A stretch of 64,000 nt of DNA from a virus (taxonomy: Duplodnaviria; Caudoviricetes): the IMG/VR virus record IMGVR_UViG_3300021255_000054, one strand, 5' to 3'. Made by a program: the position numbers and the translations under genes. The notes under the pieces are model-generated. The model worked only from the letters and a program-made list of their open reading frames with translations. It had not been told where the DNA came from and did not search any database. Below, piece by piece: positions 2,179-63,567 of the stretch (its first letter is position 1; each line of letters opens with the position of its first letter).

Positions 2179-2646
2179 ATGGCTACTACAGATAAAGTTA
2201 CAACCACAACCACAGGCACGGGCACAACCTGTTAGTGTCCATATATCAAACCAAAAGCAGAATAGGGATGGGAGTGTCCTCGCTGCGGCCGCATTAACGC
2301 ACCTTGGGTAAGGCAATGTGATTGTTCTAGAAGTGATAAATGGGATATTACTTGGAACAAAGATGATTGCGCAAAACCGTGGTGGTATGATTATATTGTT
2401 AAATGCAACGAAGCAGATAACGTATTAAATAATCCTAACATTTACAAAGTTGGTGGTAGTGATTATAAAACGGAAAATACATATGTAAATTTTAATAATA
2501 CACAATCCAATAAAATTAATCCAAATTCAGTAACTACTGCTTGGAATTGTACTAATCCCGATTAGTGCCATTATACTACTGAATCAGTGGTAACTGATGG
2601 TATACATAATTTTTATAGTTTAAAAACACCAAAGGAGACTAAATAA
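2179..2646 (+). CDS. Zn-finger hypothetical protein, 155 aa, with 3 in-frame TAG (missed by ORF track)
   Basis: GGAGGT SD; ATG 2179 to TAA 2646 fills the gap exactly; contains (Q)GWECPRCGRINAPWVRQCDC. Confidence 0.7.
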
Positions 2647-2647
2647 T

Positions 2648-4051
2648 ATGTTATATAACATTAATGATAAGCTACCTGCAAAAAGACTCTTTGTCGCGGC
2701 AATGCAGCAAGTTATTGCCTGTTTCGTTGCTACAGTACTAATTCCACAGATTTGTGGAGTGCCTATCGCGCCCGCTATGCTAGGTGCCGCATTAGGCACA
2801 CTGCTTTATCAGCTATTTACTAAGGGTCAAAGTCCTATGTTTATTAGCTCTTCTGGAGCATTCGTAGCAGCAGTATTAGGCGCATTAGCACTTGGAACTG
2901 CCCCAAACTACCTCGCTGTATTTATTGGCGGCCTAATTGTATGCCTTGTATATTTTGCGGTCGGGCTAGCAATTAATCATTTTGGTACAGATTGGATTAA
3001 CAAAGTATTGCCGCCAGTTGTAATTGGCCCAATCGTAGCAGTTATCGGCTTAAATCTTGCTACATTCCTGCCAACATATTTCCAAATTAATGGGCAGTAT
3101 AGTTTAATTGGCTTTGGTCTAGGAATGCTTACACTTCTAATTACCGCACTAATTTCTCATTATGGAAAAGGCTTTATTAAGAATCTTCCATTCCTAATTG
3201 CTATTCTTATTGTGTATGCCTTTGCCGCAATATTAACAGTATGCGGTATTCCAATTATTGACTTTAGCGTATTTAATGGAGTAAGATTATTCCAGATGCC
3301 AGACTTTGCATTCTTACATTTTGGCGCTTTTGATTGGAGTCTATTACCACAGATTCTATTACTTTTCCTGCCTCTATCACTGGTAACACTATGTGAGCAT
3401 ACGTCAGACCATAAGGCCCTAAGCGCTGTTATCGGTACAGATTTAACACAGAAGCCTGGCCTTGGTTATACTCTAATGGGTGATGGTGCTGCCACTGCTC
3501 TTGGTACTCTTATTGGTGCAATGCCTAATACGAGCTATGGCGAAAGTGTAGGAACTACAGGATTTAGTAAAATCTGTTCTAAGTATGTGATTACACTTGC
3601 CGCAATTATTATGGGTATTGCCGCATTTATTGGGCCATTGCAGGCTTTCCTTGTTAGTATTCCCAGTGCTATCTTTGGTGGGTGTGCGGCGATCCTTTAT
3701 GGATATATTACTCTAAGTGGTATCCGTACTATTAAAGATAGTAATATTGATTTAAATAATAATAAGAATGTTACTATTATCGCCGCGGTATTAACTCTTG
3801 GCGTATCTGGCGCAGTATGTAACTTTGGAATAGTAAGTATTGGAACCACAGCATTAGCAATGATTGTTGGTATTGTATTAAATCTTATTCTTAAAGATAA
3901 ACCAAAATTCGGTGTAAATGAACCCGCAACGATTACATTTACTAACACTAAAACTGGTGAATCTTTTGATATAAAAGAAAAACCACAACGCGGATTGCGC
4001 GCGCAACTTAATGTTCTAGATGACGCTGCAATATTGGAAGAAAAACAATGA
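2648..4051 (+). CDS. NCS2/UraA-family nucleobase permease
   Basis: Many TM segments; SSSGAF, LPPVVIGP, PNTSYGESVG, NNNKN motifs. Confidence 0.85.
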   Translation: MLYNINDKLPAKRLFVAAMQQVIACFVATVLIPQICGVPIAPAMLGAALGTLLYQLFTKGQSPMFISSSGAFVAAVLGALALGTAPNYLAVFIGGLIVCLVYFAVGLAINHFGTDWINKVLPPVVIGPIVAVIGLNLATFLPTYFQINGQYSLIGFGLGMLTLLITALISHYGKGFIKNLPFLIAILIVYAFAAILTVCGIPIIDFSVFNGVRLFQMPDFAFLHFGAFDWSLLPQILLLFLPLSLVTLCEHTSDHKALSAVIGTDLTQKPGLGYTLMGDGAATALGTLIGAMPNTSYGESVGTTGFSKICSKYVITLAAIIMGIAAFIGPLQAFLVSIPSAIFGGCAAILYGYITLSGIRTIKDSNIDLNNNKNVTIIAAVLTLGVSGAVCNFGIVSIGTTALAMIVGIVLNLILKDKPKFGVNEPATITFTNTKTGESFDIKEKPQRGLRAQLNVLDDAAILEEKQ

Positions 4052-4064
4052 TAATAATAAAATT

Positions 4065-4094
4065 GGGGAGTTGAAATTTCAACTCTCCTTATTT
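4065..4094 (+). terminator. hairpin/probable intrinsic terminator
   Basis: GGGGAGTTGAAA/TTTCAACTCTCC followed by TTATTT. Confidence 0.5.
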
Positions 4095-4121
4095 GACTTT
4101 CTATAAAAATTAAGATATAAT
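4093..4121 (+). promoter_or_regulatory. sigmaA/sigma70-type promoter
   Basis: TTGACT-N17-TATAAT. Confidence 0.7.
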
Positions 4122-4142
4122 TTATATAGAAAGTGAGGGGCG

Positions 4143-60627: not shown

Positions 60628-61120
60628 TAATCTAATACACCATCGAATAACCGCCTATCCAAGGGGTTAAAGTTAAGGCATCCGCGCGCACAAAAGATAA
60701 AGTACCAATTCCTGCCATCTGCGCCTAATTGAATGTATTATCAATTTCCTACATTAATAGGTAAGGGCGCAATGAATGTTCACTTAGCATCCATTCTTCA
60801 TATGGGCAAGCAATATCAAATCGTAATGTAGAAATTTTAAAATCTGGATTTAATGGATTTACAATAAAATTAGAGAACACAGCTACAATGTAGGACATTT
60901 TCTCTGTACTATCATCAAATACTTTTGGCACGATTAATATTTGTTTTCCTAATAAATCCAATCCATCAATATCAGGATACTTTTCTTTATCAAAAGGATC
61001 CCGCACCTAATATTTAAGTAATCTACAAATATTCTGATTCTTCATAATTTTATTGGCAATATTAAAAGCATTTGTACCCATTACGGCGAATCTTCTCTAA
61101 CTCGGTTGCTAAATAGCCAT
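60614..61120 (-). CDS. putative neck/tail-completion protein (168 aa, several TAG)
   Basis: GAGGTG SD; in frame with track ORF 60749-61006; function inferred from position. Confidence 0.6.
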
Positions 61121-61130
61121 ATTATTCACC

Positions 61131-62375
61131 TCACCATAATGGAACTATTTTTATTGTTTTTGAATATTCAATATTGTTGTAAGTGGCATGTAATATTACT
61201 GTTCCTAATCTATTATGATTATTAGCTTTAATTATGCAACTATTATTTAATTGCTAGCCACTATTATTACGATTAGGCTCGATAGTTACAATCTTTTTCT
61301 TCTTATCTTCTTCAGATAAAAATTCAATAGTAAAGATTCCTTTGTCTAATAAGGCATCTAAACCAATACCATTACCCTATTCATCACTTAAATGATATTC
61401 CTATTGTCGATCTAGTTTAATCGAATCTGGACCATCAATATAAGCAACAAATTCTTCATTAGGTTCATCAATTGTAATCTAAAATTCTTTAGTAACAGCT
61501 TTTCTATCTTTCAGCCGCATAATAACAGTAATTTCTCCTGCTGCTGCGGCATACCACATACCATCATCATTCTACTTTATTAATTCAGATCCATCTTTTG
61601 GCAATAGCTCGATTTCCCATTCATTAAAAGTATTTTCTCCAAAATCTGGAATTAAATAGTCCCCAACTGTATACAGCGGATTAAGAGTAGGAAATGCTAA
61701 TTTATCGGTATCAGCAACATCTACTTCTCTATCATCATACTAATAATTCACTTTACTTTCAGTCAAAGACATATATAAAATACCTTTAACACTAGTAAAA
61801 TCTTGTTCAACCATTTGCCAACCTTCATCTTCAATAATAAAGTTTGTACCACGATTAATTTCTCTTCGTGGCATAATAATTTCGGCATACTTATTTGGCT
61901 ATGGCGTAATTAAATTATGCCAAGTTCTAAAGTTGCCTTTAATTTTATCATCAGTAGAACTACATACATAAGACCAAGATTTTAATAATCTTCCTTTCTC
62001 ATTAATCCATTTAATCTCATAATTACATTTAATAATAGAGAAAGACTAATAAGTGGCATGTACTTTTTCTTCTTTAGATAATAATATCCATTTATTTAAA
62101 GTACCATCATCCTAATACCAATTTAAAATATCACCAACTACAATTGGAATATCATTGGCAACATGTAGTTCCATTAATTTCTTTTCATCTCTATCTTTAC
62201 TAGTTTCTATAATACCACTAAAATAGATTCCTCTTTCAACTGACAAGTTCCATACAGTACAAGGGGAAGATGCCATCCATTTTTCAAAAGCTAAGATGCC
62301 ACTATTTTTTACTCGATCCTACGGATTATCGCCGAAAAAATTTACTCTTGAAAAATAAACATCAAGATAATTCAT
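61131..62375 (-). CDS. putative head-closure/neck protein (414 aa, many TAG; absent from ORF track)
   Basis: MNYLDVYFSRVN... to KIVPLW-TGA; length divisible by 3; fills the gap. Confidence 0.6.
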
Positions 62376-62650
62376 CTGGCTACTCCAAGCCGCCAACTAA
62401 ATTAATGCACTCAAAGATATTCTTTCTGAAATATTCATAAGAAAGATATCTAAGCGCACATAATTTACCCATTAGCGGCCACCAGTTAATTGAATTCGCG
62501 CCCAAACCTCTTATTTCTATAATGATAGAATCTAAAAACTTCTACCATTCTCCATCCTTTTCGCGCTCACATAATAAGCCATAAAGCCGCCCTTTTAGCT
62601 TATTCTTATAGCTATCAAAAGTAATATCAGAGATATTGCTTTTTCCCAGC
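62362..62650 (-). CDS. small hypothetical protein (start uncertain, TAG-containing)
   Basis: SYKNKLKGRLYGLLCERE..FRKNIFECINLV reading ends TGA 62362. Confidence 0.5.
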
Positions 62651-63121
62651 TAATTTTCTAAATATTGTGGCGGGATTCTTTCCACGCGATCTATCATAGT
62701 CGTCGACACGATCTTGCGTCTCCAAACGTACTGCAGCTTCAAGCTTATTTAATTTATCTAAATGATTTGCGGCGGAAAAGTCTTTTGAGGTATAGAGCTG
62801 TCCAATTTGGTCCCAACTTGCTACACATCTTTTAATCCATTCATGTTTCATAAAAGTAGCAAGTACCTAAATTTCATCATTCGTAAGATCTTCTTTAAAC
62901 TAGTAAAGTTTTAATCCACCACATTCGCCATCCTCGCTATCATCAGCATCGACTTCTTCAAAGTCTAAGCTAATTCGTGGATACTTAAAACGACCTATAG
63001 CCATTTTGAGAAGTTCTTGCCAGTCTCTTTCGATTATAGCTAACTCTTCTTCTAGCATCCATTCATCAGCGGTTATTCGCGCGAGGAAGGCATCATATAC
63101 TTTTAAGAAGGGTGTTGCCAT
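62627..63121 (-). CDS. putative head-tail adaptor (164 aa, TAG-containing)
   Basis: Joins track ORFs 62900-63130 and 62627-62851; MATPFLKVYDAFLARIT. Confidence 0.6.
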
Positions 63122-63126
63122 ATTTA

Positions 63127-63567
63127 TCACTTCTCTTCTGCGTCATGCTTTGCAGCAATTGCTTTAATTACATCAACATCGCAATATCTTTTAATTAGGG
63201 CCACAATACCCGCATTGGTGATCTTATGCTCTACAGCAAGAGTAACAGCACTTTCTTTTTCTGCTTCAGTAGCATTAGGAATAAATTTAGCAAAAGCAGT
63301 TACATCACCTTTAACTAACATTTTTTCAATTTCAGAAGCCTCTACTACATTTTCTACGACTTCTACTTGCTATTCTTCTTCAATACCAGTAATTTTTAAA
63401 TAATGTCCATTTACAAGAGACATAAAACCAGGGTCAAAAGTCAGTTCTTCATATTCTTCCTGTGATACAGGAATTTCACGTCCCGGCATTAATTCACGAT
63501 TAAAATGAATATTTGGAATATATAACGAAACTAAATTCGTACTAATATTTTTAATTTTAATAGACAT
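63127..63567 (-). CDS. hypothetical virion-region protein (146 aa, TAG-containing)
   Basis: AGGAGG SD; joins track ORFs 63370-63627 and 63127-63321. Confidence 0.6.

What the first reader, a model, noticed from the sequence alone, without database searches (positions are those of the whole stretch)
2179..63567. Genome-wide TAG reassignment to glutamine (genetic code 15)
Seen: in-frame TAGs interrupt essential genes at positions where the family normally has Gln. Examples are DnaE SLF*MEQ (family FQ(L/M)E), NrdD AVIF*LQS and RuvC LANL*GV. Fragments of the TMP (11), tail protein (9) and Dit (2) all fall in one frame per gene. Reconstructed genes end in TAA/TGA with ATGA/TAATG overlaps. Known: TAG-to-Gln recoding occurs in several gut phage lineages infecting code-11 hosts. 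Inference: the phage switches the host code during infection. The suppressor tRNA-CUA and any release factor were not found in this window.
Basis: partly seen in the sequence, partly recalled or inferred. Interest (0 to 1): 0.75.

Follow-up and report, generated by a model that had tools for sequence, protein, structure and literature searches.

The report
Phage that reads TAG as glutamine
This is a complete 190-kb rumen/gut phage that uses the stop codon TAG as a glutamine codon, mostly in its late virion genes, which is a real but already well-documented phage trick (genetic code 15).

Summary
Reading TAG as sense raises ORF cover of the window from 0.49 to 0.94, and of its late half from 0.16 to 0.995. 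It restores a 4523-aa tape measure (129 TAGs) and a 2125-aa tail protein (39 TAGs). TGA-as-sense gives no gain.

TAG means glutamine:
- In three related recoded phages TAG aligns mainly with CAA and CAG.
- In six cultured standard-code Bacillota phages Gln is the commonest residue at TAG columns. TerL 63 and 381 are all Gln.
- The DnaE TAG sits on the Q of the FQLE motif.
- TAG use replaces CAG gene by gene.

The missing decoder is outside the window. It is an 85-nt tRNA(CUA) at genome position 165,546-165,630. Its extra arm copies a Gln CUG anticodon loop. The genome has no RF1/RF2 and no GlnRS/GluRS.

Recoding is skewed, not uniform: 23 TAG per 1000 codons in virion genes against 4 in replication genes. 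The major capsid and tail-tube genes are TAG-free.

The kind is known (Ivanova 2014, Borges 2021/22, Peters 2022, phAss-1 2023), and this scan has noted it many times on other DNA. This is a new member of a known kind.

The parts
2167..2646 (+). First TAG-containing gene of the window (159 aa, 3 in-frame TAG), function unknown
19023..20603 (+). DnaB-like helicase, one mid-gene TAG at 19581-19583
   Evidence: Pfam DnaB_C E=3e-14. The code-11 ORFs split at that TAG.
21887..23659 (+). RecJ-like exonuclease, one TAG at 22349-22351 just after the DHH motif
23868..27755 (+). DnaE (Pol III alpha), one TAG at 25815-25817 on the Q of the conserved FQLE motif
   Evidence: Pfam. PDB alignments to 3e0d, 2hpi and 4jom show Q at that column.
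27752..28846 (+). Unknown 364-aa gene with 5 TAG
29006..31324 (+). NrdD anaerobic ribonucleotide reductase, mid-gene TAG at 29681-29683. A second TAG at codon 9 is probably upstream of the true start.
   Evidence: Pfam NRDD E=4e-147. The homolog column is E/A/A, not Q.
31324..31824 (+). NrdG activase. Its single TAG lies 2 codons before the TGA stop, so it may serve as a stop with a back-up stop behind it.
32595..33629 (+). GIY-YIG nuclease-domain protein, 12 TAG in 344 codons
35016..35765 (+). RuvC-like Holliday junction resolvase, 8 TAG including 35514-35516
   Evidence: phrog_827 E=2e-19. Sequence read.
36186..42563 (-). 2125-aa tail protein, 39 TAG
   Evidence: No family hit.
42585..44300 (-). 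571-aa Dit-like distal tail protein, 12 TAG
   Evidence: Weak Sipho_tail hit, E=9e-4, below the Pfam cut-off.
44307..57878 (-). 4523-aa tape measure protein, 129 TAG, with C-terminal choline-binding repeats
   Evidence: PF10145 E=7e-28 and PF19127 E=2e-13. Aligns to the tape measures of cultured phages.
57940..58863 (-). Tail-tube paralogue, 5 TAG and no CAG
   Evidence: phrog_2729
58882..59829 (-). Major tail tube protein, TAG-free, with 13 CAG and 2 CAA
   Evidence: phrog_2729 E=1e-48. Aligns to the annotated major tail protein of Bacillus phage Thrax3. The same TAG-free pattern is seen in relatives.
59851..63627 (-). Five further virion genes (258, 171, 442, 167 and 166 aa) with 7, 6, 11, 2 and 1 TAG

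Best explanation
The window is part of a complete, terminally repeated 189,572-bp siphophage genome. Its virion module is SPbeta-like, and it most likely infects a standard-code Bacillota bacterium of the rumen or gut. In this genome TAG is a glutamine codon, and TAA and TGA are the only stops. The decoder is a phage-encoded 85-nt tRNA(CUA) at genome 165,546-165,630, outside the window. It sits behind a near-consensus sigma-70-type promoter at the head of the phage's tRNA island. This tRNA has U1-A72 and G73, as glutamine tRNAs do. It also has an extra arm whose 7-nt loop (CUCUGAA) copies its own anticodon loop (CUCUAAA) with CUG in place of CUA. This looks like a built-in glutamine anticodon mimic that lets host Gln-charging enzymes accept it. 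That step is an inference, as is the step that the charged tRNA outcompetes host RF1. Genes translatable under the host code (many early genes, plus the major capsid, scaffold-like and tube genes) carry no TAG. The core replication genes carry one TAG each. Minor virion, tail, packaging and late sigma-factor genes carry many. Full expression of replication and especially of virion assembly therefore waits for, and scales with, suppressor tRNA supply. Shown here: TAG is sense, TAG behaves as Gln in evolution, the tRNA exists, and the TAG distribution is skewed. Inferred: the host code, charging with Gln, and the timing role.
For: Coding:
- ORF cover rises from 0.49 to 0.94 in the window and from 0.16 to 0.995 in its late half with TAG as sense. 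TGA as sense gives nothing.
- A 4523-codon frame carries 129 TAG and no TAA or TGA.

Identity of the residue:
- Codon-level comparison was made with three related phages whose database proteins translate only with TAG=Q.
- TAG pairs with TAG 75 times, with CAA 68 times and with CAG 14 times. The next is GAA at 22.
- The log-likelihood is -526 for Q against -824 for E, the next best.
- Against six cultured standard-code phages, 84 TAG sites gave 341 aligned residues. Q makes up 14.4% of them against a 4.3% background. The log-likelihood is -952.6 for Q against -1008.6 for E.
- TerL positions 63 and 381 are Q in all six, and portal positions 154 and 271 are Q in four of five.
- The DnaE TAG falls on the Q of FQLE.
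- Per gene, TAG density anticorrelates with CAG (Spearman -0.55, p=1e-9). Adding TAG restores the Gln-codon budget: 2.2 becomes 3.6 per 100 codons, against 3.2 in TAG-free genes.
- The base after in-frame TAG matches that after sense codons, not the T-rich context after TAA/TGA stops.

Decoder:
- A tRNA(CUA) is present.
- A cloverleaf plus extra arm is 98.7% paired, with compensatory changes, in nine related phage tRNAs. UCUGA is invariant in the extra loop.
- The published code-15 phage phAss-1 carries the same design.
- A TTGACT-17-TATAAT promoter lies upstream.

Skew:
- TAG density is 23.4 per 1000 codons in minus-strand virion genes and 4.2 in plus-strand genes of the window.
- The capsid, scaffold-like and tube genes are TAG-free here and in two relatives.

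Host:
- All cultured TerL relatives infect Bacillota.
- The tape measure carries choline-binding repeats.
- A related recoded portal gene lies on a contig binned to a rumen Bacillota MAG.
Against: - There is no peptide, RNA or host evidence.
- Among distant homolog columns with a clear consensus, Glu is as frequent as Gln (5 each of 22). A few TAGs sit on conserved Y, G or E columns. At 20-35% identity these may be misalignments.
- The tRNA is atypical. It scores best, below threshold, against the tRNA-Sec model. Its long extra arm plus G73 also recall tRNA-Ser, so its charging cannot be read from sequence.
- The replication genes DnaB, RecJ, DnaE and NrdD each need one TAG read-through. This weakens a simple 'early genes are standard code' timer.
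- No RF1 antagonist or RF2 gene was found.
Confidence: 0.93

Rival explanations
1. TAG is sense but encodes another amino acid, such as Glu (through non-discriminating GluRS without amidation) or Ser (through the long-arm, G73 tRNA).
For: Glu is the runner-up in both likelihood tests, and it ties with Gln among consensus columns of distant homologs. The tRNA has a long extra arm and G73, as tRNA-Ser does, and it matches the tRNA-Sec model best.
Against: Q beats E by about 298 log-likelihood units among close relatives and by 56 among standard-code phages. S is further behind. The two-step change TAG to CAA is the commonest non-identical pairing. TAG replaces CAG gene by gene. Invariant-Q columns in TerL and DnaE carry TAG.
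Confidence: 0.04
2. There is no phage-driven switch. Either the host itself decodes TAG as Gln, or it carries its own efficient amber suppressor, and the phage simply matches its host.
For: Essential replication genes already contain one TAG each. The host is unknown.
Against: About half of the genes avoid TAG altogether, including whole early blocks at 0.5-4.7 TAG per 1000 codons. The phage carries its own tRNA(CUA). All cultured relatives and their Bacillota hosts use the standard code (plus established knowledge). Published code-15 phages and prophages sit in standard-code hosts (Borges preprint).
Confidence: 0.03
3. The TAGs are damage: a decaying or mis-assembled genome full of nonsense mutations.
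For: None beyond the fragmented appearance under code 11.
Against: Only TAG interrupts frames, never TAA or TGA, over more than 20 kb. The record has terminal repeats and is rated 100% complete. TAG positions are shared or exchanged with Gln codons in many relatives.
Confidence: 0.005

Closest known systems
Genetic code 15 (TAG to Gln) phages: Ivanova et al. 2014; Yutin et al. 2021 (PMC7886860); Borges et al. 2021 preprint (10.1101/2021.08.26.457843); proteomic proof in Peters et al. 2022 (PMC9523058)
   Same: In-frame TAG at Gln positions. TAG is concentrated in structural and late modules. The phage encodes a tRNA(CUA). A standard-code host is presumed. The proposed role is control of late-gene translation.
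   Different: This genome has no RF2, which some Lak and Agate phages carry. Here the tail tube and major capsid genes avoid TAG, whereas a crAss-like tail tube family was reported to prefer it. The lineage is an SPbeta-like Bacillota siphophage, not crAss or Lak.
phAss-1 / proposed Phassvirus and related 'Caudoviricetes code 15 clade' (Babkin et al. 2023, PMC10607447; OQ749652)
   Same: A large siphophage with DnaE, a very long tape measure, TAG in TerL and the tape measure, several suppressor tRNAs, and a predicted Clostridia/Bacillota host. TerL is a homolog. It carries the same long two-headed tRNA(CUA).
   Different: TerL identity is only 31.7%. The genome is 190 kb against 136 kb. The source is rumen-type rather than human gut. 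Only one tRNA(CUA) was found here against three there.
Agate clade of Borges et al. (large phages from cattle and pig with mixed codes; host phylum as I recall is Firmicutes, which one search does not state for this clade)
   Same: Size class (154 +/- 27 kb), ruminant source, several recoded structural modules spread over the genome, and variable recoding of replication genes.
   Different: The analysed Agate lineage is TGA-recoded.
Standard-code large Bacillota siphophages with an SPbeta-type virion module (Geobacillus virus E3, Enterococcus phage H1, Brevibacillus phage Sundance, Bacillus phages Thrax3 and FADO)
   Same: The gene order is the same: TerS, TerL, portal, YonD-like, scaffold-like, capsid, tube, tape measure. 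Protein identity is 20-35%. Relatives of the window phage hit the YonB, YonD, YomU, YomV and YomW Pfam families.
   Different: They use the standard code. At the TAG columns they carry Gln most often.
supE-type amber suppressor tRNA-Gln(CUA) of E. coli (own knowledge)
   Same: CUA anticodon, U1-A72, G73, and insertion of Gln at UAG.
   Different: The phage tRNA has a 19-nt extra arm with a CUG anticodon-loop mimic and a 5-bp D stem with a 3-nt loop. Earlier notes of this scan describe the same 'two-headed' design in other phages. I found no paper on it.

Membership tests
Code-15 (TAG=Gln) recoded phage | In-frame TAG, and only TAG, interrupts conserved genes, and reading it as sense restores full-length genes and coding density | tested here: met
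Code-15 (TAG=Gln) recoded phage | TAG columns correspond to Gln in homologs that use real Gln codons | tested here: met
   Codon-level comparison in relatives. Six cultured standard-code phages. PDB Pol III alpha. Individual examples fail: NrdD.
Code-15 (TAG=Gln) recoded phage | A suppressor tRNA with anticodon CUA is encoded by the phage (frequent, but not universal) | tested here: met
   Genome 165,546-165,630, outside the window
Code-15 (TAG=Gln) recoded phage | Gln is found at TAG sites in peptides | not testable with these tools
   Needs metaproteomics, as in PMC9523058
Code-15 (TAG=Gln) recoded phage | The host uses the standard code | not testable with these tools
   The host was not identified. 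It is inferred from TAG-free gene blocks and from Bacillota relatives.
Phassvirus genus (phAss-1) | High nucleotide identity (82.7% and 86.4% among the described species) and shared synteny | tested here: not met
   TerL is only 31.7% identical at protein level. It is related at a higher rank at most.
SPbeta-type virion module siphophages of Bacillota | Collinear order TerS, TerL, portal, YonD, scaffold, YonB capsid, YomU tube, tape measure, with detectable homology | tested here: met
tRNA-Gln-derived amber suppressor | CUA anticodon with a weak 1-72 pair (U1-A72) and G73 | tested here: met
   Relatives vary at 1-72: A-U and C-G are also seen.
tRNA-Gln-derived amber suppressor | Ordinary class I shape with a short variable loop | tested here: not met
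   A 19-nt extra arm and a compact D arm. It scores best, below threshold, on the tRNA-Sec model.
tRNA-Gln-derived amber suppressor | Charged with glutamine | not testable with these tools
   Needs an aminoacylation assay

The most novel reading that the evidence does not exclude
The decoder is a 'two-headed' tRNA. The real anticodon arm reads UAG. A second, covarying arm displays a copy of the Gln CUG anticodon loop, so that host Gln-charging machinery (GlnRS, or non-discriminating GluRS plus GatCAB) still treats the suppressor as tRNA-Gln. On top of this, the phage grades TAG use by protein dosage. The capsid, scaffold-like and tube genes are kept TAG-free and CAG-rich. Low-copy virion, packaging and late sigma-factor genes are TAG-rich. 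Suppressor supply would therefore set both the timing and the stoichiometry of assembly. The tRNA design is also present in the published phage phAss-1, but I found no description of it in print.
Probability: 0.3. Interest if true: 0.6.

Novelty: new member of a known kind. Interest (0 to 1): 0.3.

Why it matters
For annotation, the point is practical. Under the standard code about half of this genome, and nearly all of its virion module, is unreadable. Such phages are easily mis-called, split or discarded.

For biology, this adds a complete rumen-type, SPbeta-like Bacillota siphophage to the list of code-15 lineages. It shows two refinements worth testing in a tractable system. One is a conserved exemption of the most abundant virion proteins from TAG. 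The other is a suppressor tRNA that appears to carry its own glutamine identity tag. The phenomenon itself is established, and this scan has met it repeatedly on other DNA.

Tried and rejected
- Database homologs of the portal looked like perfect proof, with Q invariant at 6 of 12 TAG columns. They turned out to be translated with TAG=Q themselves. I discarded that count as circular and replaced it with codon-level and standard-code comparisons.
- The genome-contig scan with the portal profile found only one short contig, itself recoded. It gave no prophage and no firm host.
- The genome search could not reach the ENA records of relatives to look for their tRNAs.
- PDB alignments were uninformative for RecJ and DnaB, whose TAGs lie in unaligned stretches. 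They were absent for the RuvC-like protein.
- This Pfam copy did not hit the capsid or tube proteins. I identified them through annotated cultured phages instead.
- I tested whether TAG is enriched just before the real stop, which would suggest TAG stops with back-up stops. It is not significantly enriched: 11 observed against 7 expected within 5 codons, p about 0.09.
- The base after TAG shows no special suppression-friendly context compared with CAA/CAG (chi-square p=0.44).
- TAG density does not track GC3, so the CAG-rich, TAG-free genes are not simply GC-rich imports.
- Literature searches found no paper on two-anticodon-arm suppressor tRNAs or on the cow-rumen-3/4 motifs.

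
Full report
**What the window is.** The window is bases 17,718-81,717 of a single 189,572-bp IMG/VR virus record. The record has direct terminal repeats and a CheckV completeness of 100%. G+C is about 33%. The coding strand switches at about 36.1 kb of the window, and GC skew flips with it.

**The observation.** Under table 11 the window has 27 ORFs of 150 aa or more, and only two of them lie in the minus-strand half. With TAG read as sense, 36 ORFs appear. They include a 4523-aa ORF with 129 TAGs, a 2125-aa ORF with 39 and a 571-aa ORF with 12.

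ORF cover under the three readings is as follows:

| ORF cut-off | Region | Table 11 | TAG as sense | TGA as sense |
|---|---|---|---|---|
| 100 aa or more | whole window | 0.49 | 0.94 | 0.51 |
| 100 aa or more | bases 36,001-64,000 | 0.16 | 0.995 | 0.175 |
| 300 aa or more | whole window | 0.25 | 0.71 | 0.27 |

The ATGA and TAATG-type junctions are real. The fragment counts given (11, 9, 2) are large undercounts: the true numbers of pieces are 130, 40 and 13. No tRNA lies in the window.

**Gene content.** The plus-strand half encodes the following:
- a DnaB-like helicase, RecJ and DnaE;
- NrdD and NrdG;
- a formate/nitrite-transporter-family protein;
- a GIY-YIG protein;
- a RuvC-like resolvase.

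The minus-strand half is a siphovirus tail and head module. It holds:
- a tape measure with PF10145 and C-terminal choline-binding repeats;
- a weak Dit-like protein;
- tube proteins and other virion proteins.

Just beyond the window lie the capsid, portal, both terminase subunits and a sigma factor. Relatives of this phage carry the YonB, YonD, YomU, YomV and YomW families of the SPbeta virion module.

**Which amino acid.** Full-length database homologs of the portal show Q at most TAG columns. Those proteins were themselves produced with TAG=Q, so I set that evidence aside as circular.

I used three independent lines instead.

1. *Codon-level alignment with three related recoded contigs.* TAG pairs with TAG 75 times, with CAA 68 times, with CAG 14 times and with GAA 22 times.
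   - TAG to CAA needs two substitutions, so its dominance marks synonymy.
   - A likelihood test used the substitution spectra of the same alignments. It gives Q -526, E -824 and K -826.
2. *Six cultured phages of Bacillota that certainly use the standard code*.
   - 84 TAG sites gave 341 aligned residues.
   - Q is the commonest at 14.4%, against a background of 4.3% and 22.5% at our CAA/CAG columns.
   - The likelihood is Q -952.6 against E -1008.6.
   - TerL positions 63 and 381 are Q in all six. Portal positions 154 and 271 are Q in four of five.
3. *The single DnaE TAG.* It lies on the Q of the FQLE motif in three solved Pol III alpha chains.

Internal statistics agree:
- TAG density per gene anticorrelates with CAG (Spearman -0.55, p=1e-9) but not with CAA.
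- CAA+CAG falls to 2.2 per 100 codons in TAG-using genes. It returns to 3.6 when TAG is added, against 3.2 in TAG-free genes.
- The base after in-frame TAG has the composition seen after sense codons. It lacks the T-rich context seen after TAA/TGA stops.

Caveats:
- Among distant columns with a clear consensus, Glu ties with Gln at five each.
- The NrdD example is not a Gln column: solved NrdDs have E, A and A there.
- The RuvC example could not be checked.

**The decoder.**
- ARAGORN finds 25 tRNAs at 165.5-179.3 kb of the genome.
- The first of them is a tRNA(CUA) at 165,546-165,630.
- RF-1, PCRF and class Ic synthetase domains are absent from the whole genome.

The tRNA is 85 nt long and has these features:
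- a 7-bp acceptor stem with U1-A72;
- G73 as discriminator;
- a 5-bp D stem with a 3-nt loop;
- a 19-nt extra region.

Rfam places it, below threshold, on the tRNA-Sec model.

Two earlier notes of this scan (e1-5495868, e1-1121674) described 'two-headed' Gln suppressors in other phages, so I tested that reading here. The extra arm's loop is CUCUGAA. That is the tRNA's own anticodon loop CUCUAAA with CUG for CUA.

An exact search for its anticodon arm in IMG/VR returned 35 contigs, many carrying long tRNA(CUA) genes. In nine distinct sequences, a cloverleaf plus extra arm is 98.7% paired. Fourteen pairs change on both sides, two of them in the extra arm. UCUGA is invariant in the extra loop.

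The published code-15 phage phAss-1 carries a 91-nt version next to a canonical 75-nt tRNA(CUA). I found no paper describing this design.

Whether the mimic loop serves aminoacylation is an inference. The long arm and G73 would also fit recognition by SerRS, but the substitution data do not support Ser.

The genome also holds an intron-containing tRNA at 179,695-179,852. Its anticodon stem (ACGGA/UCCGU) resembles that of the suppressor (ACGGU/ACCGU).

**Distribution and likely working.** TAG is not spread evenly. Densities are shown below.

| Region | TAG per 1000 codons |
|---|---|
| Window, plus-strand genes | 4.2 |
| Window, minus-strand virion genes | 23.4 |
| Genome, replication block | 4.4 |
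| Genome, virion block | 20.9 |
| Genome, second late block | 10.7 |
| Genome, right-end block | 0.5 |

DnaB, RecJ, DnaE and NrdD each carry exactly one mid-gene TAG. The decoder must therefore be active before replication, not only late.

The tRNA(CUA) lies behind an 11-of-12 match to the sigma-70 consensus. This fits early transcription by host polymerase.

The late sigma-factor-like gene carries 4 TAGs here and 8-10 in relatives. Late transcription may therefore itself depend on suppression.

The major capsid gene, the scaffold-like gene and the major tube gene are TAG-free and use CAG almost exclusively, although they sit inside the TAG-rich module. The same holds in two relatives at 65-90% protein identity, while their neighbours carry 3-11 TAGs. 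This is not a GC3 effect. A reasonable reading is that decoding of TAG is limiting, so proteins needed in hundreds of copies avoid it. The Borges preprint reports the opposite tendency for a crAss tail tube family.

**Host.**
- All cultured TerL relatives infect Bacillota.
- The tape measure ends in choline-binding repeats.
- A 61%-identical portal gene, also recoded, lies on a contig binned to a rumen Bacillota MAG.
- Two Rfam motifs named after cow rumen flank the suppressor tRNA.

The host code is taken as standard from general knowledge of Bacillota and from published recoded prophages in standard-code hosts. It was not tested.

**Comparison and verdict.** This is genetic code 15 as described by:
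- Ivanova et al. 2014 (own knowledge);
- Yutin et al. 2021 (PMC7886860);
- Borges et al. (10.1101/2021.08.26.457843);
- Peters et al. 2022, who showed it by proteomics (PMC9523058).

The nearest described recoded lineage is the phAss-1 group (PMC10607447; TerL 31.7% identity). Membership of the Agate clade is possible but untested.

This scan has recorded the same phenomenon many times: 181 findings in at least 108 genomes hold the search words.

I rate it as a well-supported new member of a known kind with modest interest. Two side observations deserve follow-up: the two-headed suppressor tRNA and the dosage-linked avoidance of TAG.

Noticed in passing
L006:4947-5031 (genome 165,546-165,630; outside the window): The suppressor tRNA(CUA) is 'two-headed'. 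Its extra arm displays CUCUGAA, a copy of its own anticodon loop with the Gln anticodon CUG. The design recurs in many IMG/VR phages and in published phage phAss-1, where it sits in tandem with a canonical tRNA(CUA).
   Followed up: partly
L006:4456-5180 (genome about 165,055-165,779): Two orphan Rfam motifs bracket the suppressor tRNA. cow-rumen-4 (RF02948, 63.7 bits) lies right after a TTGACT-17-TATAAT promoter. cow-rumen-3 (RF03083, 100.6 bits) lies directly 3' of the tRNA. Both are above gathering score, and their function is unknown. This places them in a TAG-recoded phage next to its code-changing tRNA.
   Followed up: no
window 23775-23870: The DnaE N-terminus is out of frame. ATG at 23775 reads MKMTYPGSLHN and then meets TAG. 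The PHP-motif continuation HTHYS follows 7 nt later in the +1 frame. This was also noted earlier in this scan (e1-5687307). It could be a frameshift or bypass site, or an assembly error.
   Followed up: partly
window 29006-32543: A formate/nitrite-transporter-family gene (PF01226, E=2.5e-23) sits directly after nrdD and nrdG. Formate is the reductant of class III ribonucleotide reductase (own knowledge), so the phage may import the reductant for its own enzyme.
   Followed up: no
window 44307-57878; L008 and L010: The tape measure proteins are huge: 4523 aa here and 4143 and 6390 aa in relatives. At about 1.5 Å per residue, the usual rule from my own knowledge, these would give tails of roughly 0.6-1 micrometre. 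This one ends in choline-binding repeats.
   Followed up: no
window 57940-59829: Two adjacent tail-tube paralogues (both phrog_2729) have opposite codon habits. One has 5 TAG and no CAG. The other has no TAG and 13 CAG. The same split is seen in relatives L008 and L010.
   Followed up: partly
window 31324-31824: The only TAG of NrdG lies two codons before its TGA stop. It may act as the stop before the code change and be read through to the back-up stop afterwards. Genome-wide, such near-terminal TAGs are not significantly enriched.
   Followed up: yes
genome 179,695-179,852 (L006:19096-19253): ARAGORN finds a tRNA with an 86-nt insert in the anticodon loop. It calls it Thr(UGU) with an intron. 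ARAGORN's whole-genome run, made without its intron option, called no tRNA-Gln.
   Followed up: partly
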